From Candidatus Daviesbacteria bacterium RIFCSPHIGHO2_12_FULL_37_16 (GTDB lineage: Bacteria; Patescibacteriota; Microgenomatia; Daviesbacterales; UBA10151), in NCBI GenBank assembly GCA_001776785.1, contig MFDF01000023.1, positions 60,432-124,431 of the forward strand: 64,000 nt of DNA. The letters are read 5' to 3'. The notes below the pieces were generated by a model. The model saw only the letters and a list, made by a program, of their open reading frames with translations. It was not told where the DNA came from and did not search any database. Below, piece by piece: positions 55,687 through 64,000 of this stretch (the first letter of the stretch is position 1; every line of letters starts with the position of its first letter). The translations under genes were made by a program, and so were the position numbers.

Positions 55687-56961
55687 ATGTTAGATATAAA
55701 TTTTATTAGAGAAAACACAGATTTAGTTAAAAAAGCAGTCCTCGATAAAGAGATTAAGCTTGATGTGAATGAATTACTAAAACTTGATGATAGAAGGAGA
55801 GAATTGCTTGGTAAAGTTGAGGATTTAAGGGCACAAAGAAACCAGGCTGCAAAGGAGAGGAATATAGAACTTGGGAAAAAGGTAAAAGGTGAATTAGATG
55901 GGTTGGAAGATGAATTGAGAAAGGTTGAGGAAAAATTTAGAGAACTTATGCTTTTAGCCCCAAATATTCCTGCCCCTGATGCACCAGTTGGAAAAGATGC
56001 CCAGAATAATGAGGTAATCTATAAGTGGGGAAATAAACCTGACTTTGATTTTGAAGTTAAAGACCACATAGAACTTGGGAAGAATTTAGATATTTTGGAT
56101 TTGGAACAGGGTGCAAAGGTCTCTGGATTTAGGGGATATTATCTAAAAAATGAGGGTGCAGTTTTGCACTGGGCAATTTTAAGGCTGGCTATGGATAGGA
56201 TTTTATCCCATGGATTTAGTTTAATGGTCCCCCCCACTTTAGTACATGAGGAAGTTTTAGAAGGGTCAGGCCATTTCCCTTTTGGGAAAGAGAATATTTA
56301 CCAGATTGCCAATCCTGGGAAATTAGATAGTGGTGAGGATATTAAAAAACCTGTGTTTTTAACAGGTACTTCTGAACCATCTTTGCTTGCATACTTTATG
56401 GGTAAGACTTTAAGTGAGGAAGACCTGCCTGTTAAAGTTGCTGCAATGACCCAATGCTATAGATCAGAGGTTGGTGATTATGGTAAAGATACAAGGGGCC
56501 TTTATAGGATTCATGAGTTTACTAAAGTTGAGCAAGTTGTTATTTGTTCAGCTGATTTGGATGAATCTGAAAAATTATTTAAAGAGATGCAGGAAATTTC
56601 CCAAAAGATTTTAGAGGATTTAGGGATTCCCTACCAGGTTATTGCAACTTCTACAGGAGATATGGGGGCAGGCAAATACAGGATGAATGATATAGAGGCT
56701 TGGATGCCTGGCAGAAATAAATATGGGGAGACTCATTCTAATTCTAATTTGACTGACTGGCAGGCAAGAAGACTTAATATAAAAGTGAGATATAAGAATG
56801 AAGATATAAAATATGTATACACACTTAATAATACTGTTATTGCATCCCCTAGAATTTTAATTGCAATTTTGGAAAATTTTCAGCAAAAAGATGGGTCTAT
56901 AAAAATTCCTGATATTTTAATCCCTTATACTGGTTTTTCAGAAATTTCATCCAAACATTAG
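55687..56961 (+). CDS. serS: Seryl-tRNA synthetase
   Basis: N-terminal coiled coil. Class II motifs 2 and 3 (FRSEVGDYGKDTRGLYRIHEF, GSALAV-like ...IASPRILIAILEN). Confidence 0.9.
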   Translation: MLDINFIRENTDLVKKAVLDKEIKLDVNELLKLDDRRRELLGKVEDLRAQRNQAAKERNIELGKKVKGELDGLEDELRKVEEKFRELMLLAPNIPAPDAPVGKDAQNNEVIYKWGNKPDFDFEVKDHIELGKNLDILDLEQGAKVSGFRGYYLKNEGAVLHWAILRLAMDRILSHGFSLMVPPTLVHEEVLEGSGHFPFGKENIYQIANPGKLDSGEDIKKPVFLTGTSEPSLLAYFMGKTLSEEDLPVKVAAMTQCYRSEVGDYGKDTRGLYRIHEFTKVEQVVICSADLDESEKLFKEMQEISQKILEDLGIPYQVIATSTGDMGAGKYRMNDIEAWMPGRNKYGETHSNSNLTDWQARRLNIKVRYKNEDIKYVYTLNNTVIASPRILIAILENFQQKDGSIKIPDILIPYTGFSEISSKH

Positions 56962-58058
56962 TTAGGTGGGGGAACTGAAGGTAGTGGAGGACCAGGAGGG
57001 ATTGTGGGACTGGCTGAAGAGCTTTGTCTTTGTTTTAAAAGATCAACTGCTGAAGTACCAGAAGGTGTAGGGGTTGGTGTTACCAGGCTTGAGGAAGTTG
57101 TGGCTGGAGGAACTGAAGGGAGAGGAAGCGGTGGCGGAGTGGGAACTTGAGCTGGAGGGTTAGTTAGTGTAGATTCTTCTTGAGCTGGTATTGAAGCTGG
57201 AGATGGGGCTCCAGGTTTGCCTATTCCTAAGATAAAGTATGCAGATAATCCAGAGACTATTAAAATTACAATAATCCCAACAATTATCAATATTTTTGAA
57301 ATATTGAAGTGATTTCCTGATGTAGTAATAGATTCAGGAGTATTATTTGAGGGGACTACTAAATTTTCTGGTTGAGCAATGGGTGGAGTGTAAACTTCAT
57401 TGTGATTATTTGCGGGAGGCGTTTCTGATATTAAGTGGGAAAGGTCTGTGGGTGCAGTTTCAGTTGGAGTCTGAGGTGATGGAGGTGTAGATCCAGGTTG
57501 TTCAGCTCCCCCTAATCCTAAGCTCTGACTAAGATTTGGAGGCATATTTGGAGTTTGGGAATTATCTGGTGCAAAAACTTCTGGAGCTATTGGCTGGGTT
57601 GGTGCTGGAGGTTCTTGAAGTGTTGTTTCAGGAGGAGTTAGAGGGTTGACAGAAGGGGTAGCTCCATCAATTGTACCTGAAAATGCTGGTTGAGAGGGAA
57701 TGCTTGGAGTTAAGTTATCAAGAGGTGGTGCTGCAGGTGGGGTGGTTGAGTCCAGTGGTGTAGATCCAAAACTTTGGGGAGGATTAGATGGAGGAGCTGG
57801 ATCAATGGTAGAAGATGGGGGTGCAGAAAAACCTGTTGAAGCAGGTAAATCTGGTGAAGAAGATGAGGGTATATCAAGCGAGATTGGCTGGATAGGTGTT
57901 TGTGGAGATGCAGTTATATTTTGGGTTGGGTCAGAGGCAGGAGTGGCTGGGGGTTGTGCCTGTGATAACCCTCCACCTGGGGTAGAAGGCCAGCTAAATC
58001 CAGAGGGTGGGTTATTGGGATCGTTTGGGTTGTTAGAATTAGGATTATTAGGGTCCAT
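56958..58058 (-). CDS. Proline/Thr/Ser-rich low-complexity single-TM protein
   Basis: 366 aa, ~35% Pro. One TM (ILIIVGIIVILIVSGLSAYFILGI). Confidence 0.5.
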   Translation of the reverse strand: MDPNNPNSNNPNDPNNPPSGFSWPSTPGGGLSQAQPPATPASDPTQNITASPQTPIQPISLDIPSSSSPDLPASTGFSAPPSSTIDPAPPSNPPQSFGSTPLDSTTPPAAPPLDNLTPSIPSQPAFSGTIDGATPSVNPLTPPETTLQEPPAPTQPIAPEVFAPDNSQTPNMPPNLSQSLGLGGAEQPGSTPPSPQTPTETAPTDLSHLISETPPANNHNEVYTPPIAQPENLVVPSNNTPESITTSGNHFNISKILIIVGIIVILIVSGLSAYFILGIGKPGAPSPASIPAQEESTLTNPPAQVPTPPPLPLPSVPPATTSSSLVTPTPTPSGTSAVDLLKQRQSSSASPTIPPGPPLPSVPPPN

Positions 58059-58184: not shown

Positions 58185-58223
58185 GGTGAGCAAGTCACCG
58201 AACTACTGCATGACTTGCTCACC
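58185..58223 (+). promoter_or_regulatory. Perfect 13-bp stem-loop (GGTGAGCAAGTCA-N13-TGACTTGCTCACC) in the secA leader / divergent intergenic region
   Basis: Seen directly. No upstream gene ends here, so it is not a simple terminator. Confidence 0.4.
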
Positions 58224-58301: not shown

Positions 58302-61181
58302 ATGTTAAATATATTTAGCAAACTTATTGATGCTAATCAGAGAGAAGTGAAAAGGCTTGCAAATACAGTCAGGGAAGTTAATTCCCTAGAGCCTAAAATT
58401 AAAAAACTCACAGATTCTCAAATTAAGTCAAAATCAGAGGAGTTGAGGAAAAAAGCTCAAAGTGGTGAGGATTTAAATAAGTTATTGCCTGAGGCTTTTG
58501 CACTTATTAGGGAAGCAGCTTTTAGAAGTTTAGGCCAGAGGCACTTTGATGTCCAGCTTATTTCTGCAGCTGCATTGCATGAAGGGAAGATTGCTGAACA
58601 AAGAACTGGTGAGGGTAAGACTTTGTCTGCCACTCCTGCTGTATTTTTGAATGCATTAACAGGTAAAGGGGTACATGTTATTACTGTAAATGATTATTTG
58701 GCCAGAAGAGATGCTGGATGGATGGGGCCAATTTACCACATGCTTGGGGTGAGTGTAGCTGTTATAGTTCATGATGCAGCTTACCTTTATGATCCAAAAT
58801 ATTCTGCAAAGGATGTAAGTGATAAAAGACTTAAGCATTTAAAACCTGTTTTCAGAAAAGAAGCTTATTATGCAGATATAACTTATGGGACTAACAATGA
58901 GTTTGGATTTGATTATTTGCGGGATAACATGGCCCTTTCTTTGGAAAACCAAAACCAGAGAGGCCACTTTTATGCAATTGTTGATGAGGTTGACTCAATT
59001 TTAATTGATGAGGCAAGAACCCCTTTAATTATTTCTGCACCTGCCCAGGAAGCTACTGACAAATATATCCAGTTTACAAAGATAATAGATAAGTTATCTG
59101 CAGATACAGATTATGTAATTGATGAAAAACTAAGGACTGCCCATTTAACAGAGCATGGGACTTTAAAAATTGAAAAAATTTTGGGGGTAGATAACCTATA
59201 TGAGAAAGATTTTTCTTCTTTACATCATATGGAGGAAGCTTTAAAAGCCAAAACACTTTTTCAGATAGATAAAGATTATGTGGTTAAAGATGGGGAGGTA
59301 ATTATTGTTGATGAGTTTACCGGAAGGCTGATGCCTGGGAGAAGATATTCAGAGGGGCTTCATCAGGCAATTGAAGCAAAAGAGGGTGTGCAAATTCAGC
59401 AGGAGTCCCAAACTTTGGCAACCATTTCTTTCCAGAATTACTTTAGGATGTATGAAAAACTTGCAGGTATGACTGGTACAGCTGCAACAGAGGCAGAAGA
59501 GTTTCATAAAATCTATAAACTGGATGTTATTATTGTGCCTACTAATATGGACATGATAAGAATTGATGATGCTGATGCAATTTATAAAACTATTGGTGCA
59601 AAATATTCAGCTGTAGCAGCAGAGATAGAAAAAATTCATGCTACTGGACAGCCAGTTTTAGTTGGTACTACATCAATTGAAAAAAATGAATTTTTATCTG
59701 ACCTTTTAAAGAAAAAGAAGATCTCCCATGCTCTTTTAAATGCTAAAAATCATGAAAAAGAAGCTGAGATTATTGCAGATGCAGGAGCCAAGGGTGCTGT
59801 GACAGTTGCTACAAACATGGCAGGAAGAGGAGTGGATATCCAGTTGGCTAAGGGGGTAGCAGAGCTTGGGGGGCTTTATGTAATTGGTACTGAAAGGCAT
59901 GAGTCCAGAAGGATTGATAATCAGCTTAGGGGTAGGTCTGGAAGGCAGGGGGATCCAGGTGTCTCTAAGTTTTTTGTTTCATTGGAGGATGATTTAATGA
60001 GGATTTTTGGAGGGGACCAAGTGGCAAAAGTGATGAACTTTTTAAAGATGCCTGAGGATGTACCAATTGAGAATCCTCTTGTTTCTAAAGCAATTGAAGG
60101 GGCCCAGAAAAAAGTTGAGGGTCACAACTTTGATATCAGAAAACACACTGTTGAATATGATGATGTGATGAATCAGCAAAGACAGATTATTTATGGGGTA
60201 AGAAAGCAAATTTTAGAAGCAACAAGTCAGTCGTCAGTCGTCAGTCGTCAGTCGTCAGACTCCTTGAAAGAGCAGATACTTGAGAAGGTTGATAAAGAGA
60301 TTGAAGGAGTAGTTTTGGCAAATTCCCAGGATGGAGTAGATTTTGAAAAAATTGTTGAGGATATGTCTACCATAGTTCCTTTTGATGATAAATCTAAAAT
60401 AGATTTGCAAAAACAGGTAGAACAATTAAATTCTGAGCATATAACTGAATTTTTAATTAAGCTTGCAAGAGATTTATATGGGCAAAGGGAAAAACAGGTG
60501 GGAGAAGATATATCAAGACAGATGGAGACATTTGTTTATTTAAATACTATAGATACACTTTGGATTGAGCATTTAGATACTATGGATGATCTAAGGGCAG
60601 GGATTGGGCTCAGGGGTTATGCCCAAAGGGATCCTTTGGTTGAATATAAAAAAGAAGGGTTTGATTTATTTGAGAGATTACTTATAAATGTAGATTCAGA
60701 GGTAGTCCATAGGATTTTTAAAGTTTCAGTAGAGCACAGGCATCCAATTGCTCCCCAGCCTGTGGTGGATCTGGATAAAGCTCTGGAAGAGCATGAAGAA
60801 GCATTAGATGAGAAAACTTTGATGGAAGAAGTAGGACAATTAATGCCGCAAGTAGAAGAGACAAGAGACAAGATACAAGATACAAATAATGGGGAAACTA
60901 AGGTTGTGGTAGAAGGGTCAAGTAATGATGCTGCATATTCAACACCTGAACCCTCCCGTCATTCTGAACAAGTTTTGGAATCTGTACCAGATGTAGTAGT
61001 TGAACAGCCATCACCAACTACAAAAGTAACTGTTGAAAGAGGGGGGCAAGTTGTTGCCCAGCAAGTTTATAGAGAAGATGGAGGTTTGCAACAAAATAAA
61101 ATTGGCAGGAATGATCCTTGTCCCTGTGGATCAGGGCTTAAGTGGAAGAAGTGCCATCTAAATAGGGAACCGCAAGGATAG
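58302..61181 (+). CDS. secA: Preprotein translocase ATPase SecA (ORF open from 58215; likely start is the ATG at 58302, MLNIFSKLID...)
   Basis: DEAD motor (TGEGKTL, DEVDSILIDEARTPLIIS). C-terminal Zn-binding CPCGSGLKWKKCH. Confidence 0.9.
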   Translation: MLNIFSKLIDANQREVKRLANTVREVNSLEPKIKKLTDSQIKSKSEELRKKAQSGEDLNKLLPEAFALIREAAFRSLGQRHFDVQLISAAALHEGKIAEQRTGEGKTLSATPAVFLNALTGKGVHVITVNDYLARRDAGWMGPIYHMLGVSVAVIVHDAAYLYDPKYSAKDVSDKRLKHLKPVFRKEAYYADITYGTNNEFGFDYLRDNMALSLENQNQRGHFYAIVDEVDSILIDEARTPLIISAPAQEATDKYIQFTKIIDKLSADTDYVIDEKLRTAHLTEHGTLKIEKILGVDNLYEKDFSSLHHMEEALKAKTLFQIDKDYVVKDGEVIIVDEFTGRLMPGRRYSEGLHQAIEAKEGVQIQQESQTLATISFQNYFRMYEKLAGMTGTAATEAEEFHKIYKLDVIIVPTNMDMIRIDDADAIYKTIGAKYSAVAAEIEKIHATGQPVLVGTTSIEKNEFLSDLLKKKKISHALLNAKNHEKEAEIIADAGAKGAVTVATNMAGRGVDIQLAKGVAELGGLYVIGTERHESRRIDNQLRGRSGRQGDPGVSKFFVSLEDDLMRIFGGDQVAKVMNFLKMPEDVPIENPLVSKAIEGAQKKVEGHNFDIRKHTVEYDDVMNQQRQIIYGVRKQILEATSQSSVVSRQSSDSLKEQILEKVDKEIEGVVLANSQDGVDFEKIVEDMSTIVPFDDKSKIDLQKQVEQLNSEHITEFLIKLARDLYGQREKQVGEDISRQMETFVYLNTIDTLWIEHLDTMDDLRAGIGLRGYAQRDPLVEYKKEGFDLFERLLINVDSEVVHRIFKVSVEHRHPIAPQPVVDLDKALEEHEEALDEKTLMEEVGQLMPQVEETRDKIQDTNNGETKVVVEGSSNDAAYSTPEPSRHSEQVLESVPDVVVEQPSPTTKVTVERGGQVVAQQVYREDGGLQQNKIGRNDPCPCGSGLKWKKCHLNREPQG
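60228..60258 (+). repeat. Tandem heptanucleotide repeat (CAGTCGT)x4.4 inside secA, encoding SQSSVVSRQSS
   Basis: Seen directly. The 7-nt unit is not a multiple of 3. Confidence 0.7.
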
Positions 61182-61201
61182 GTTGTTCTACAATCCTATA
61201 A

Positions 61202-62770
61202 CTAGAATCGAAAATCTATTTCAATTTTTCCATTTCCTGCTCTGATCTCTTTGACTATCATACGTAGTACATGTTTTCTCTCTTCAAGTTCCGAACTATC
61301 CCATAAAGTATTGAAGTCATCTAGGGATTTAGTAAATTTCTCTAGCTCTTTGCGACGCTCATTAAGTTGTTGAACCTTAAATTGATAATCATCGGTTACC
61401 ACATGGTATTTAGTTACCTCTTCCTCCAGACGCTTCATATTGCCCGCATACACATCTATAGAGTCAATACCCGCCTCGTATGCCTCTTTGACTCTCTCAC
61501 GTCTTCTATCGATATCTGCGAGGTGCTTAGCTGCTAATTTGTAATCTGATTCAAGGTTATCTGTAATAGCAATATTTCTGTCAAATATAAGCCTTTCTCT
61601 GGCAGTAGGATTGTTTACGAGATTGCGTATCTGATTCAAGACAAAATCTTCAAGCCTTGTTGCACTCATAATCCTTCGTTGGCATATTCCACTGTACTTG
61701 TAGCCTCCGCACAAGTACTCATAAGTAGTGGTATCATTCCATTTCGGATTTTTCTTCTTTCTGTTGTGGTGGCGGGTAAGATAAGTTACACCTGATCCGC
61801 AACGAATACATTTTGCTATGCCTGTAAGTAAACCTCTGCTTTGTTTTGCTCGTCCTTTTTGCGAGTTTCCCCTAATCCTTTTCTCCTTTTGAGCGAGCTT
61901 AAATATTTCTTCAGGTATAATGGCTTTGTGTATTCCGTCTTCAACAATGCCTTTATGATCTCGTAACTTTCGTTGTTTGTTTTTTGCATAGTCTGCATGT
62001 CTCCAACCCCAAAGTACCTTTCCAGTATAAGTTTGGTTTTGAAGCATATATTTGATCGCTTGGGCTCTCCAATATTTACCTCTTGGAGGTTTTATGCCTT
62101 TTTCTGTGAGTGCAAAGGCAATACTTAAAGCCCCTCTTCCTTTAGTGTATTCTTCAAATATCCAGCGAATAGTTTTAGCGTTTTCTTCATCAACCTCAAC
62201 TTTTCTTTGAACTTTATTTTTATCATCAATCCAACGAATAATTTTATAACCATAGGGCACGTTGTTTGGTATCTTTCCAGCTTTTGCTACAGCTACCTTA
62301 CCCATCGTCATTCTACGCCTGATCTTATTCCTTTCGATTTCGTTCATGGTGTCACTGAAGCCTTCTACCATTATGCCTAAGTCGTCATCTGTAGGATCGT
62401 AAAGTTTTGGATCTCTCGGCTCAACAGGGGTTGCAAGCGAATACGTTTGTATAAATATCTTCTTTAGCTCATCTCTAGATTTAGTAGCCAGTGATTTATT
62501 TCGTGCAAATCTATCAAAATCTTTTACTATTACAAGATCGAATTTGTAGGCAAGGGCATCCTGCATGAGTTTTTGGAAACCTAGTCTTTCTTCCATTAAA
62601 TGGCCACTTTCTGCGTCGATATAGGGTTCTTCAACCAGTTCCCAGCCGTGATCGGCTATGGCTTTTTTGCACACTCTTATTTGATCGGGGATAGATTCCT
62701 TGCCGTCTGCTTGTTCTTTTGTTGAGACTCTTCCGTAAATAACAGCTCTAATTTTAAATTTATTTTCCAT
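61202..62770 (-). CDS. Large serine recombinase (resolvase N-domain + recombinase domain + Zn-ribbon + coiled coil)
   Basis: AVIYGRVSTKEQ (catalytic Ser). C-terminal CxxC...C Zn-ribbon (CIRCGS...CGGYKYSGIC). Confidence 0.8.
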   Translation of the reverse strand: MENKFKIRAVIYGRVSTKEQADGKESIPDQIRVCKKAIADHGWELVEEPYIDAESGHLMEERLGFQKLMQDALAYKFDLVIVKDFDRFARNKSLATKSRDELKKIFIQTYSLATPVEPRDPKLYDPTDDDLGIMVEGFSDTMNEIERNKIRRRMTMGKVAVAKAGKIPNNVPYGYKIIRWIDDKNKVQRKVEVDEENAKTIRWIFEEYTKGRGALSIAFALTEKGIKPPRGKYWRAQAIKYMLQNQTYTGKVLWGWRHADYAKNKQRKLRDHKGIVEDGIHKAIIPEEIFKLAQKEKRIRGNSQKGRAKQSRGLLTGIAKCIRCGSGVTYLTRHHNRKKKNPKWNDTTTYEYLCGGYKYSGICQRRIMSATRLEDFVLNQIRNLVNNPTARERLIFDRNIAITDNLESDYKLAAKHLADIDRRRERVKEAYEAGIDSIDVYAGNMKRLEEEVTKYHVVTDDYQFKVQQLNERRKELEKFTKSLDDFNTLWDSSELEERKHVLRMIVKEIRAGNGKIEIDFRF

Positions 62771-62790
62771 ATTACATTTAATCGAACAAT

Positions 62791-63027
62791 TTATTTCTTC
62801 AACTTAATTTCTACTGAATTCAAATAAGCCAAGACATCTTCTTTTCTATAGCGTCTATCATTTCTGGAACCTACACGAATAGCTACAAGCTTTCCTTTTT
62901 TGTCCCATTCCCTTAAAGTCCAATTGCTAACCCCTAGAATTCTTGCTGTTTGCTCAAGTGTTAAGAGATATCCCCAAGTATTTGGATCTGAAGGAGAAAA
63001 TAAACTAGTTGATTTACTATTTACCAT
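62791..63027 (-). CDS. Excisionase-family helix-turn-helix DNA-binding protein
   Basis: LTLEQTARILGVSNWTLREWDKKGKL...R..YRKEDV matches HTH_17/excisionase (MerR-like). Confidence 0.6.
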   Translation of the reverse strand: MVNSKSTSLFSPSDPNTWGYLLTLEQTARILGVSNWTLREWDKKGKLVAIRVGSRNDRRYRKEDVLAYLNSVEIKLKK

Positions 63028-63068
63028 AACTTATACTAAGTTAACCATAGTTAAATGTAAAATGCAAT

Positions 63069-63887
63069 ATGAATAATGATGTAATCTTAGATTCTCTGAG
63101 ACTAGTAAAAAATATTCTTAATTCGCTACTGCCAGAAGAAAAAGGAGCAATAGTAAATATTGCTAGAGATAAAAGAGATTCTTTCCAACTTAAAGGAATA
63201 GCAACAATATATGGCTACAAACAAGACAAGACGCCTGTATTTTTAGAAAAACATGGAGTAATAGAGGCTATAAACACTAGAAAATGGCACGTCGATAATG
63301 TTGATGAAAATGATGATTGGGTAAAGCAAGTCTTGCCAGAAATAAATTTCGTAGATCCTATTTTTACAAAAGCTCTCGCTAAAGATTACTTAGAAGATAA
63401 TCAAATACCTAAATATTATTACGAGGCTACTTATTGGGGTGGAGTTCCTACTGTTTACTCATGGGGGCCTAAGAAAGATAGACATGCAGCAATTTTAGTT
63501 AGCGTTGACGGCCTCAATAAGTTTATAGAAATGTTTGATGTTCAAAATAGTAAATTTGCTCAGAAAGAAAAAATCGTGACATTTGATGATGCGACTGGTG
63601 AGGTTAAAGTAAGTGGTAATACTTTAGGTAAGATAAGAAAAAATACAGATCAGTTTGAATTATGCAATGTAGTTCTTAAGAATGGAGCCTCTAAAAAGAA
63701 AACATGGGAATGGGATGAGATATTAAATAAGTGGCATATGGATAATCTAGATAATCTAAAGGCTAAGAAAATGAAGGTTTATCGTGCAGCTCGGGAGATA
63801 AATAAAAAAATTGCTCAAGTTAGTGAATATAAAGAATTCTATATTTTTACTACTAACACCTTACAGCTAAATCCTATCTTCAAATAA
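63069..63887 (+). CDS. Hypothetical protein, element cargo (272 aa)
   Basis: Clean ORF divergent from the recombinase operon. No domain recognised. Confidence 0.45.
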   Translation: MNNDVILDSLRLVKNILNSLLPEEKGAIVNIARDKRDSFQLKGIATIYGYKQDKTPVFLEKHGVIEAINTRKWHVDNVDENDDWVKQVLPEINFVDPIFTKALAKDYLEDNQIPKYYYEATYWGGVPTVYSWGPKKDRHAAILVSVDGLNKFIEMFDVQNSKFAQKEKIVTFDDATGEVKVSGNTLGKIRKNTDQFELCNVVLKNGASKKKTWEWDEILNKWHMDNLDNLKAKKMKVYRAAREINKKIAQVSEYKEFYIFTTNTLQLNPIFK

Positions 63888-64000
63888 TTGTTTGTCTAAC
63901 ATTATATAAATTTAGACAAATCCTCTTTTTGTAAACTTTGGTTGACATGCAAAGTCAGCCATTTTCAAAACTCACACCAGAACAACAAGAGAAGGTAATA

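What the first reader, a model, noticed from the sequence alone, without database searches (positions are those of the whole stretch)
61182..64000. Integrated element with a large serine recombinase inserted 21 nt after the secA stop
A large serine recombinase (catalytic YGRVSTKEQ, Zn-ribbon), an excisionase-family HTH gene and a divergent cargo gene follow secA. The codon flavour differs (more CGN/GCG codons). Large serine recombinases integrate without target duplications, so the boundaries need comparative data. The cargo continues beyond the window.
Basis: partly seen in the sequence, partly recalled or inferred. Interest (0 to 1): 0.55.

Follow-up and report, generated by a model that had tools for sequence, protein, structure and literature searches.

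The report
Serine-integrase island inside secA's last codons
A roughly 12.7-kb mobile DNA island of an uncultivated groundwater bacterium (Candidatus Daviesbacteria) has been spliced by a large serine integrase into the last codons of the essential secretion gene secA; it is an ordinary kind of element, but its target site, both ends and its attachment sites can now be stated exactly.

Summary
Window 61202-62770 (-) encodes an intact large serine recombinase (LSR), 62791-63027 (-) an HTH_17 protein, and 63069-63887 (+) a divergent gene of unknown function.

The insertion point is not after the secA stop. The crossover lies inside secA, in the Lys-Lys-Cys codons of its SEC-C zinc motif (61146-61153). 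The last nine codons and the stop codon of secA are element DNA.

The far end (attR) is 12,727 bp away, outside the window (window-equivalent about 73,880). In a relative it carries the displaced native secA tail.

The reconstructed attP has a 10-bp inverted repeat (perfect in two relatives, 9 of 10 here) around a 29-bp spacer.

Related Daviesbacteria have empty sites. LSR homologues 75-94% identical always sit at this same spot, in hosts whose SecA proteins are only 54-70% identical to each other. Arg codons are 35% CGN in the element against 8% in the host.

The element carries a phage-type replication initiator, an XRE repressor, an amidase and a variable cargo slot, which holds restriction and defence genes in relatives. 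It has no capsid, portal or terminase gene, so it is a satellite- or plasmid-like island, not a complete prophage.

Verdict: a new member of a known kind, with a previously unreported target.

The parts
58302..61181 (+). secA, the target gene. The 959-aa form is the one called in public assemblies; an upstream TTG at 58215 is also open. Codons up to the SEC-C Cys (61152-61154) are host DNA; the rest is element DNA.
   Evidence: Pfam SecA_DEAD, PP_bind, P-loop, SW and SEC-C. Tail classes of the 120 closest SecA proteins.
61125..61178 (+). attL: the host B arm (codons for G-S-G-L-K-W-K-K) joined to the element P' arm.
   Evidence: Alignment of attL from 13 loci. Comparison with the empty attB sites of L153 and L144.
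61146..61153 (+). AAGAAGTG, the stretch shared by attB (AA[A/G]AA[A/G]TG) and attP (AAAAAATG). The crossover lies somewhere within it. The centres of symmetry of attP and attB both fall in the A-run, so an AA central dinucleotide is the best guess.
   Evidence: attL versus attR versus attB. The exact dinucleotide cannot be resolved from sequence alone.
61162..61171 (+). ATAGGGAACC, the outer motif of the P' arm. It is the inverted partner of GGTT(T/C)CCTAT in the P arm at the far end of the element and lies inside the invariant 17-mer at 61159-61175.
   Evidence: The 17-mer is invariant in four junctions aligned. It is present at every LSR-bearing locus and absent from 80 distant secA loci. 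The inverted repeat was found.
61155..61181 (+). Element-encoded replacement tail of SecA (H-L-N-R-E-P-Q-G-stop). It replaces a native tail inferred to be of the G-L-I-N-A-P-Q-H type.
61182..61201 (.). 20-nt spacer that still contains CCTATAA. It is a remnant of the longer tail-coding region (codons E-A-Y-N) seen in relatives. The window element has a 55-nt deletion here.
   Evidence: Alignment A1; tails listed.
61202..62770 (-). Large serine recombinase (integrase), 522 aa. The nucleophile Ser16 lies in YGRVSTKEQ. Domains in order: catalytic domain, long helix E, recombinase domain, zinc ribbon (C321, C324, C354, C363) with an inserted coiled coil (helices 404-432 and 438-483).
   Evidence: AlphaFold model with pLDDT 78. 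Foldseek matches to full-length integrase-att complexes 9dxh, 9y66, PhiC31, Bxb1 and 4kis.
62791..63027 (-). HTH_17/MerR-like 78-aa protein, 20 nt upstream of the integrase on the same strand. It is a candidate recombination directionality factor and/or regulator.
   Evidence: Pfam PF12728 6.7e-11; PHROG excisionase families. It sits next to the LSR in all relatives at 58-71% identity. Its function is inferred.
63028..63068 (.). 41-nt divergent control region between the HTH-integrase operon and the rightward operon. It has back-to-back promoter-like hexamers and AGTTAA repeats.
   Evidence: These are pattern matches only and are not above chance for the region as a whole. Sequence.
63069..63887 (+). 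p272, the first gene of the rightward operon. It is a conserved-position core gene of the element family and its function is unknown.
   Evidence: Homologues at the same position in L146 (69%), L109 (42%) and L106 (26%); L104 and L148 are linked through these and align at 21% and 18%. No Pfam, PHROG, PADLOC or PDB match. AlphaFold model unusable, pLDDT 33.6.
63947..64000 (+). Start of a 57-aa ORF that runs off the window. The element continues to window-equivalent 73,880.
   Evidence: Gene calls in L009; attR at L009 20780-20812.

Best explanation
Window 61,146/61,154 to 64,000 is the left 2.85 kb of a 12,727-bp integrative element of a Candidatus Daviesbacteria genome.

Integration. The element's large serine integrase recombined a roughly 50-bp attP with an attB formed by the secA codons for the SEC-C zinc motif.
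- attP (perfect-repeat form; this element has GGTTTCCTAT in the left arm): GGTTCCCTAT-AAAAAAGCATTTCAAAAAATGCCATCTAA-ATAGGGAACC
- attB: ...GGATCAGGNYTNAAGTGGAARAARTG|YGGN...

The crossover fell within the shared AA(A/G)AA(A/G)TG stretch. No target duplication results. attL keeps secA open by supplying a replacement tail (CHLNREPQG-stop). attR, 12.7 kb downstream, carries the displaced native tail (C-G-L...) in direct orientation, so attL x attR recombination would excise a circle.

Gene content, left to right:
- Leftward operon: integrase and the HTH_17 protein.
- Rightward operon: p272, p57, DUF5659, p153, an HTH_50 protein, a phage-type winged-helix replication initiator and a zinc-ribbon protein.
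- Variable cargo slot, which here holds SHOCT, DsrE, DUF4352, p178, p474 and p376.
- Right end: a secreted Amidase_3, an XRE repressor, p163, a conserved 350-nt non-coding region and attR.

What is shown: the domain architecture and fold of the integrase, both junctions, empty sites in relatives, foreign codon usage, and horizontal spread of the integrase module.

What is inferred: that the HTH_17 protein acts as the directionality factor, that the excised circle replicates through the Rep protein, and the route of transfer between cells. The element has no conjugation or capsid genes, so the likeliest routes are packaging by a helper phage, as for phage satellites, or natural transformation.
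For: LSR identity: three Pfam domains, phrog_95 at 2e-90, invariant catalytic and Zn-ligand residues across 43 homologues, an AlphaFold model with a coiled coil inserted in the zinc domain, and best fold matches to full-length serine integrase-att complexes at E 3e-23.

Target site: LSR homologues 80-94% identical to the window's, in six other loci with different hosts, are all convergent with secA, with 0-5 nt between the stop codons where secA is in view. In the JGI metagenome scan, 11 loci carry the 17-mer next to an LSR homologue. Ten of them show secA beside it, and the eleventh is cut by a contig end.

Junctions: the P-arm motif ATGGTT(T/C)CCTATAAAAAAGCATTTCAA(A/G)AAATG is found once each in L009 (20780-20812), L152 and L151. 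It is followed by TGGGCTA (C-G-L) in L009, CCACTAT (C-H-Y) in L152, and TGGACTTATTAACTCTCCTCAG (C-G-L-I-N-S-P-Q) in L151. The L151 sequence is exactly a native SecA tail class.

Empty sites: L144/L145 (SecA 73% identical, tail CHYPN-stop, no LSR). L153-L155 (Rifle Daviesbacteria, tail CGLIGASQHRS, no LSR; attB ...AAGTGGAAAAAATGTGGTTTAATT shares AAAAAATG with attP). Of the 120 closest SecA proteins, 115 have native-type tails (101 CH[YFW]P[NQ], 13 CGLI, 1 CHYGRD) and 5 have the element-type CH[LI]NR tail.

Horizontal spread: across 15 pairs of loci, LSR identity averages 82% (75-92%) and SecA identity 59% (54-70%), with no correlation (Spearman 0.05). SerRS is 39-49% and AspRS 46-55% identical to the window's.

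Composition: CGN is 35% of Arg codons in the element against 8% in the host. GC is 0.348 against 0.372.

Architecture is stable in relatives: L146/L152 (about 11.9 kb) and L151 (15.1-kb contig) share both end modules and differ only in the middle. In L151 the middle is a type III restriction-modification system plus an AriA/OLD-like ATPase and a PD-(D/E)XK nuclease.

P-P' contiguity: L141 holds 16 nt of the P arm fused to P'.
Against: No excised circle or empty site from the same strain was seen. All 23 contigs read with the exact LSR and all 21 read with the exact SecA are occupied, so current mobility is unproven.

In the window's own genome only 7 nt beyond the attR core could be read, because locus L009 ends there. 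The fuller displaced tail is seen only in the relative L151.

The exact crossover dinucleotide cannot be fixed. The B' arms differ greatly between hosts (CCACTAT... versus TGGACTT...), which is unusual if both attB half-sites are read with equal stringency.

No relative of this LSR is in IMG/VR and no transfer machinery was found, so the means of spread is a guess.

The HTH_17 protein could be only a transcriptional regulator.
Confidence: 0.85

Rival explanations
1. It is an inert remnant of a temperate phage. An ancestor resembling the L109 element (LSR module plus primase plus large terminase) lost its structural genes. The island is now fixed in place and can no longer move.
For: The replication initiator is phage-type: 62 phage records match against 9 plasmid records (phrog_428/270). 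An endolysin-like Amidase_3 and an XRE repressor are present. The relative L109 has a TerL-like gene (phrog_2, 7e-29) and L148 a small terminase. The window element has lost the long SecA tail through a 55-nt deletion. No empty site was seen in the same strain.
Against: The integrase ORF is intact and keeps all residues that are invariant in the family. attL and attR are intact, with a 9-of-10 inverted repeat. Three diverged elements (window, L146/L152, L151) keep the same two end modules and similar sizes of 12-15 kb while exchanging only the middle. This is the pattern of a functioning element type, not of random decay.
Confidence: 0.12
2. It is a complete temperate prophage whose structural genes lie beyond the window.
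For: The integrase, repressor, replication and lysis-like genes are typical of prophages.
Against: Both ends are now defined and the element is only 12.7 kb. All 17 of its ORFs were scanned against Pfam and PHROGs, and none matches a capsid, portal, terminase or tail family.
Confidence: 0.02
3. The recombinase is a resident, vertically inherited host gene, for example a domesticated recombinase that switches the SecA C-terminus, and not part of a mobile element.
For: It is always found beside secA, and it changes the SecA tail.
Against: Related genomes lack it. LSR and SecA identities are uncorrelated, and the LSR is far more conserved than the housekeeping genes. Codon usage is foreign across the whole 12.7 kb. 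attL and attR are in direct orientation, which gives excision and not inversion.
Confidence: 0.01

Closest known systems
Site-specific large serine integrases of prophages and islands (PhiC31, Bxb1, TP901-1, Listeria A118/LI integrase), and the thousands of LSR-attB pairs catalogued by Durrant et al. 2022 (PMC10083194)
   Same: Same three-domain architecture with a coiled coil inserted in the zinc domain. Short att sites with inverted-repeat arms, no target duplication, and one conserved gene targeted by a whole LSR clade, which that paper describes as the rule for 83-88% of LSR clusters.
   Different: At most 28% identity to any LSR in GenBank phage records and 20% to solved structures. No relative in IMG/VR. 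The host is a CPR/Patescibacteria lineage. secA is not mentioned as a target in the main text of that paper (supplements not checked).
phiRv1 of Mycobacterium tuberculosis (Bibb & Hatfull 2002, listed as reference 17 in PMC12286644; details from my own knowledge)
   Same: A roughly 10-kb prophage-like element with a large serine integrase and a small Xis-type HTH protein as directionality factor.
   Different: phiRv1 integrates into a repeated element (REP13E12), not into an essential gene, and carries some capsid-related genes. The role of the HTH_17 protein as directionality factor here is only inferred.
Phage satellites that use a large serine integrase and their own replication initiator, such as Vibrio cholerae PLE (abstract of PMC9410903; the integrase type is from my own knowledge), and PICIs
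   Same: Size of 12-18 kb. Integrase, regulator and replication module, no structural genes, and a variable accessory region. One relative (L148) has a small terminase, as PICIs do.
   Different: No helper phage, packaging-redirection gene or induction signal has been identified. The window element has no terminase gene.
Lambdoid phage 21 and the e14 element integrated in the 3' end of icd in E. coli (my own knowledge)
   Same: Integration inside the 3' end of a conserved protein gene, with the element supplying a substitute 3' end so that the gene stays functional.
   Different: Those elements use tyrosine integrases and supply a near-identical copy. Here the substitute tail differs from the native one, and in most relatives it adds about 25-28 residues beyond the shared CH[IL]NREPQ start; 24 of those codons were tested and are under purifying selection.
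Gene-intervening elements with LSRs in Bacillus (skin/SpoIVCA in sigK, SPbeta/SprA in spsM, gin in gerE; reference 21 in PMC12286644)
   Same: A large serine recombinase and an insertion inside a host coding sequence.
   Different: Those elements split and inactivate the gene until developmental excision. Here secA remains a complete open reading frame.

Membership tests
Large serine recombinase (serine integrase) | N-terminal resolvase-type catalytic domain with the nucleophilic serine | tested here: met
   PF00239 at 2.9e-22 over residues 9-166. YGRVSTKEQ with Ser16. Y12, R14, T17, E19 and Q20 are invariant and S16 nearly invariant in 43 homologues.
Large serine recombinase (serine integrase) | Recombinase domain followed by a zinc-ribbon domain with four Cys ligands | tested here: met
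   PF07508 at 9.7e-22 and PF13408 at 6.4e-9. C321, C324, C354 and C363 are invariant.
Large serine recombinase (serine integrase) | Coiled-coil motif inserted in the zinc domain, and an overall fold like that of solved integrases | tested here: met
   AlphaFold model with pLDDT 78. Helices 404-432 and 438-483 lie between the zinc-domain strands (319-368 and 506-520). Foldseek E 3e-23 to 9dxh and 9y66; also PhiC31, Bxb1 and 4kis.
Large serine recombinase (serine integrase) | Short attP and attB sites with inverted-repeat arms around a central dinucleotide, and no target-site duplication | tested here: met
   attP has a 10-bp inverted repeat (perfect in L151 and L152, 9 of 10 in the window element) 29 bp apart. 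attB has ATTAAA/TTTAAT 15 bp apart. Only an identity of up to 8 bp (AAAAAATG) is shared, and there is no duplication at the ends. The central dinucleotide itself is not resolved.
Large serine recombinase (serine integrase) | Catalysis of attP x attB recombination, with attL x attR only in the presence of a directionality factor | not testable with these tools
   Needs an in vitro or heterologous recombination assay.
Integrative mobile element / genomic island | Presence or absence among related genomes at a defined site | tested here: met
   Occupied: window, L104, L106, L109, L115, L146, L148. Empty: L144/L145 and L153-L155. Five of 120 SecA clusters have the element-type tail.
Integrative mobile element / genomic island | Displaced part of the target found at the far junction | tested here: met
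   attR is followed by C-G-L-I-N-S-P-Q codons in L151, C-H-Y in L152 and C-G-L in the window genome. Only 7 nt are readable in the window genome.
Integrative mobile element / genomic island | Foreign composition and phylogenetic incongruence with the host | tested here: met
   CGN is 35% of Arg codons against 8% in the host. LSR identity averages 82% against SecA 59%, Spearman 0.05.
Integrative mobile element / genomic island | Excised circular form (attP) and restored attB in the same population | tested here: inconclusive
   No attP-form or empty contig from the same strain was found. Indirect hints only: the P-P' junction fossil in L141, and several assemblies break within about 20-140 nt of both att cores.
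Complete temperate prophage | Capsid, portal, large terminase and tail genes between attL and attR | tested here: not met
   None of the 17 ORFs matches such a family in Pfam or PHROGs.
Phage satellite (PICI/PLE-like) | Integrase, repressor and own replication initiator in a 10-18-kb element without structural genes | tested here: met
   LSR, XRE HTH_3 (1.6e-17) and Rep-like protein (phrog_428 at 1.1e-11) in 12.7 kb.
Phage satellite (PICI/PLE-like) | Packaging-hijack genes (small terminase or capsid-size redirection) and induction by a helper phage | tested here: not met
   The window element has no terminase or capsid-related hit. Only the relative L148 has a small terminase. Helper dependence cannot be tested here.
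Integrative conjugative or mobilizable element | Relaxase/oriT, with or without a type IV secretion system | tested here: not met
   No relaxase, coupling-protein or T4SS family among the Pfam hits to the element's ORFs.

The most novel reading that the evidence does not exclude
Integration does more than park the element: it rewrites the C-terminus of the essential translocase motor SecA. In 11 distinct relatives the element supplies a conserved 33-36-residue tail, CH[IL]NREPQ..E.EAYNLYF.N..EW.RRYGKK. The 24 codons tested beyond the P' arm are under purifying selection in the secA frame only (pN/pS 0.34, against 1.18 and 0.80 in the other two frames; 22 of 24 third positions vary, against 14 and 13 first and second positions). 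None of the other five frames is open in all eight sequences checked. The reconstructed circular form has no start codon upstream of the tail. The peptide can therefore be made only as a SecA fusion after integration. If the graft has a selected function, such as changing SecA's zinc-domain interactions, excluding competitors or making the host dependent on the island, this would be an element that edits a core secretion protein as part of its lifestyle. The window's own element has lost the long tail and keeps only CHLNREPQG.
Probability: 0.3. Interest if true: 0.65.

Novelty: new member of a known kind. Interest (0 to 1): 0.5.

Why it matters
Mobile elements of the Candidate Phyla Radiation are poorly described, and these bacteria are hard to manipulate genetically.

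This result gives a complete, sequence-level integration system for the Microgenomates: an integrase, a roughly 50-bp attP, and an attB that sits in a nearly universal gene motif. The system could be tested directly as an integration tool.

It also shows that one integrase module spreads between hosts as different as 54-70% SecA identity. The module carries interchangeable cargo, including type III restriction-modification and AriA/OLD-like ATPases, so it is a route of gene flow and defence exchange in these reduced genomes.

For annotation, the C-terminal residues of SecA in such genomes are element-derived. secA-adjacent recombinases in Microgenomates mark islands of about 12 kb or more.

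Tried and rejected
- A scan of GTDB species genomes with SecA returned only distant relatives (44-58% identity). None has the LSR and no close empty site was found there.
- A search for a second copy of the 17-mer or its inverse in L009 with up to 3 and then 7 mismatches found nothing. The P arm is too asymmetric to be found that way.
- A search for the displaced tail as Y-P-N-stop codons in occupied loci found nothing useful. The window's host belongs to the other tail class, CGLI.
- A generic repeat search over the left 6.7 kb gave only chance matches.
- IMG/VR has no exact 17-mer match. It has no close LSR relative with a single query, and only 26-27% identical hits with a profile.
- The metagenome 17-mer scan found 31 loci. 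20 are chance matches with neither LSR nor SecA, and none is an attP form.
- L015 looked like a different context (a SecA fragment next to an unknown 703-aa ORF), but it is the same locus with frameshifts.
- The AlphaFold model of p272 from a single sequence is unusable (pLDDT 33.6). Pfam and PDB profile searches of the p272 family found nothing.
- PADLOC gave no hit for p474, p376, p178 or p272.
- Rfam found nothing in the element.
- Extending the window's contig beyond attR was not possible.
- Inovirus was considered and rejected, because no Zot/pI-type ATPase is present.
Full report
**What is in the window**

secA ends at 61181. Twenty nucleotides later, on the opposite strand, a 522-aa ORF ends (61202-62770). 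It carries the Resolvase, Recombinase and Zn_ribbon_recom domains and the catalytic motif YGRVSTKEQ. It matches the PHROG integrase family phrog_95 at 2e-90.

An alignment of 43 homologues keeps the catalytic residues and four zinc-ligand cysteines invariant. An AlphaFold model built on that alignment (pLDDT 78) shows a catalytic domain, a long helix E, a recombinase domain, and a zinc domain with an inserted coiled coil. Its best structural matches are full-length serine integrases bound to att sites: 9dxh and 9y66 at E 3e-23, then PhiC31, Bxb1 and 4kis. It is a genuine large serine integrase. It is distant from characterised ones: at most 28% identity to any LSR in GenBank phage records.

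Upstream on the same strand is a 78-aa HTH_17/MerR-like protein (62791-63027). Across a 41-nt divergent region lies a 272-aa gene with no known family.

CGN codons make up 35% of Arg codons over the whole element, against 8% in 37 host genes.

**Source and extension**

The window is part of an 85-kb contig from Rifle aquifer metagenomes. The identical locus is in GenBank assembly GCA_001775325.1, whose proteins are named Candidatus Daviesbacteria. Locus L009 gives the window from 53069 plus 9.9 kb beyond its end (L009 coordinate = window coordinate - 53068).

**The integrase always sits at the end of secA, in very different hosts**

Homologues 80-94% identical to the window's LSR were traced in six other loci (L104, L106, L109, L115, L146, L148). 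Each is convergent with secA, with 0-5 nt between the stop codons where secA is in view.

In JGI metagenomes, 11 loci have the junction 17-mer next to an LSR homologue. Ten of them show secA beside it.

The hosts are far apart. Across 15 pairs of loci the LSR averages 82% identity and SecA 59%, with no correlation (Spearman 0.05). SerRS and AspRS are only 39-55% identical to the window's. A recombinase that is better conserved than housekeeping genes, and incongruent with them, is moving horizontally.

**Where the junction really is**

The junctions share an invariant 17-mer, TAAATAGGGAACCGCAA (window 61159-61175), inside the end of secA. It is absent from 80 distant secA loci.

Of the 120 closest SecA proteins, 101 end ...KKCH[YFW]P[NQ], 13 end ...KKCGLI(N/G)APQH.., and one ends CHYGRD. 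Only 5, including the window's, end ...KKCH[LI]NR.... So the sequence after the SEC-C cysteine is not native.

Two native-tail genomes were checked, and both lack the integrase:
- L144/L145: SecA 73% identical, same upstream synteny, tail CHYPN-stop.
- L153-L155: a Rifle Daviesbacteria, tail CGLIGASQHRS.

**The other end**

Comparison with the relatives L146/L152 and L151 showed that the element is larger than the GC dip suggested. p376 and p474, 10 kb from the integrase, are 76-79% identical in L106, whose SecA is only 60% identical. The XRE-p163 pair recurs in L146 and L151.

About 350 nt beyond p163 there is a motif, ATGGTT(T/C)CCTATAAAAAAGCATTTCAA(A/G)AAATG. It occurs once each in L009 (20780-20812), L152 and L151. 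What follows it is host secA tail:
- L151: TGGACTTATTAACTCTCCTCAG, which with the preceding TG reads C-G-L-I-N-S-P-Q.
- L152: CCACTAT, reading C-H-Y.
- The window's genome: TGGGCTA, reading C-G-L, after which the locus ends.

This is attR. The displaced native tail is in direct orientation with secA.

From the TG of the Cys codon at attL (window 61152-61153) to the TG at attR (L009 20811-20812) is 12,727 bp.

**The att sites**

| Site | Sequence |
|---|---|
| attP, reconstructed from this element (P + P') | GGTT(T/C)CCTAT-AAAAAAGCATTTCAAAAAATG\|CCATCTAA-ATAGGGAACC |
| attB (empty site, L153) | GGATCAGGATTAAAGTGGAAAAAATG\|TGGTTTAATTGG |

- attP has a 10-bp inverted repeat around a 29-bp spacer. 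The repeat is perfect in L151 and L152 and 9 of 10 in this element.
- attB has its own ATTAAA/TTTAAT repeat, 15 bp apart.
- The two sites share only AA(A/G)AA(A/G)TG. Both centres of symmetry fall in the A-run, so an AA central dinucleotide in the Lys codons is the best guess, but it is not resolved.
- There is no target duplication.
- The target is a good choice for a broad-host element, because it encodes the conserved G-S-G-(K/L)-K-(W/Y)-K-K-C motif.

**What kind of element it is**

All 17 ORFs were scanned against Pfam and PHROGs, and five ORFs (p272, DUF4352, p178, p474, p376) also against PADLOC.

Left to right, the element has:
- the integrase and HTH_17 protein;
- a rightward operon of p272, p57, DUF5659, p153, an HTH_50-like protein, a winged-helix replication initiator and a small zinc-ribbon protein. 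The initiator matches phrog_428/270 at 1e-11 and is 30-35% identical over its N-terminal half to initiators of staphylococcal and lactobacillal temperate phages;
- a leftward cargo block of SHOCT, DsrE, DUF4352, p178, p474 and p376;
- a secreted Amidase_3, an XRE repressor, p163, a conserved non-coding 350 nt, and attR.

There is no capsid, portal, terminase, tail, relaxase or secretion gene.

Relatives keep both end modules and swap the middle. L151 has a type III restriction-modification system with an AriA/OLD-like ATPase and a PD-(D/E)XK protein. L146/L152 has a different set of unknown genes.

Elements with the same integrase module but a different right-hand side include:
- L109, with a DnaG-type primase and a TerL-like protein;
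- L148, with a small terminase;
- L104, where MmeI-type, SMODS and GmrSD genes lie alongside, though these were not shown to be inside that element.

The window's element is best described as a small integrative, probably replicative island of satellite or plasmid-like type. Its integration module is shared with phage-like elements. How it moves between cells is not shown.

**An extra point on SecA**

In 11 distinct relatives the element-derived tail is long (33-36 residues, CH[IL]NREPQ..E.EAYNLYF.N..EW.RRYGKK) and abuts the integrase stop codon.

The 24 codons tested beyond the P' arm evolve under purifying selection in the secA frame only: pN/pS is 0.34, against 1.18 and 0.80 in the other two forward frames, and 22 of 24 third positions vary. 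None of the other five frames is open in all eight sequences checked.

In the reconstructed circular form there is no start codon upstream. The peptide can therefore be made only as a SecA fusion after integration.

The window's element has a 55-nt deletion here and gives the short tail CHLNREPQG. That tail still places a His directly after the third Cys, as in the canonical zinc motif.

**Limits**

- No excised form and no empty site of the same strain was found.
- Only 7 nt beyond the attR core are visible for this genome.
- The role of HTH_17 as directionality factor and the transfer route are inferences.
- Two hints of excision exist. Contigs in three independent assemblies break within about 20-140 nt of both att cores. 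L141 holds a fossil in which 16 nt of the P arm are fused to P' just after a native secA stop.

**Comparison and verdict**

Mechanistically this is a standard site-specific serine-integrase element. Clade-wide targeting of one conserved gene is the rule for such integrases (PMC10083194).

The closest analogues are:
- phiRv1 (LSR plus a small HTH Xis protein);
- LSR-bearing satellites such as PLE;
- for the replacement of a gene's 3' end, phage 21 and e14 in icd.

What is new is the lineage (CPR), the target (the secA SEC-C codons, not found in three literature searches; nor in the main text of PMC10083194), the fully defined att sites, and the selected SecA tail in relatives.

It is a new member of a known kind. 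Interest is moderate.

Noticed in passing
L141:500-960 (JGI Ga0209102_1000078): This is a decayed copy. secA has a native-type end (..KKCHYPDPGPRG-stop). It is followed at once by 16 nt of the P arm fused to the P' arm (GCATTTCAAAAAATGCCACATAAATAGGGAACC), the long tail ORF, and only the last 69 codons of the integrase. This is an attP-type junction sitting next to an intact attB, which canonical integration does not produce. How it arose is unexplained.
   Followed up: partly
L009:20462-20780 (window-equivalent 73,530-73,848): About 350 nt of non-coding DNA between p163 and attR are conserved with L152 and partly with L151. The stretch includes a hairpin (CCCTATCCAGCCTAGAATGGATAGAG), palindromes around TATATAAG and AGATCT, and a 16-nt tandem pair. 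It could be an origin, a packaging site or a regulatory RNA. Rfam finds nothing.
   Followed up: partly
L009:16266-18862 (p474 and p376) and L106:1885-5244: This gene pair is 76-79% identical between elements whose hosts share only 60% SecA identity. p376 matches phrog_17982 at 2.9e-44 (function unknown). Neither protein has a PADLOC or Pfam hit. They are mobile cargo of unknown role, possibly a defence system.
   Followed up: partly
SecA proteins P0165, P0166, P0171, P0174-P0176, P0195-P0197, P0204, P0207, P0208, P0223; locus L153:12700-12751: A native class of Daviesbacteria SecA ends ..CPCGSGLKWKKCGLI(N/G)APQH.. It lacks the canonical His directly after the third Cys of the SEC-C zinc motif and has a His eight residues later. 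The window's host belonged to this class before integration. The element's tail restores the canonical C-H.
   Followed up: partly
Contig ends: JGI C687J35174_10008606 (L012), Logan contigs of L146, L147, L151, L152: Independent assemblies break within about 20-140 nt of attL and attR. The 12,927-bp JGI contig is almost exactly the element plus about 100 nt on each side. This fits a mixed population of occupied and empty sites, or repeats shared between species. It was not tested at the read level.
   Followed up: no
L109:3197-8113 and L148:6221-6676: Relatives with the same integrase/HTH/p272/DUF5659 module carry other genes beside it: a 936-aa DnaG-type primase plus a TerL-like protein (phrog_2, 7e-29) in L109, and a small terminase (phrog_51, 9e-14) in L148. 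The integration module is therefore shared by phage-like and island-like elements.
   Followed up: partly
window 56958-58058 (-): A 366-aa protein extremely rich in Pro, Ser and Thr, with one hydrophobic segment and no Pfam family. It sits between serS and secA. A counterpart of similar size and position, with weak similarity (35-39%), is present in L144 and L109.
   Followed up: no
L144:12938-13060: Directly after the native secA stop of the empty-site genome there are about three tandem copies of a unit of roughly 30-35 nt (TTTCCGAAGGAAAGAGGCCGAATGGACTCA). It was seen by eye only.
   Followed up: no
Logan SRR29904083 contig of 8,675 bp (no DNA held): This contig holds an exact copy of p272 together with the HTH_17, 57-aa and DUF5659 genes, followed by different genes (103, 291 and 457 aa) and an OLD-family AAA_15/TOPRIM protein. 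It is a further cargo variant of the same element core.
   Followed up: no
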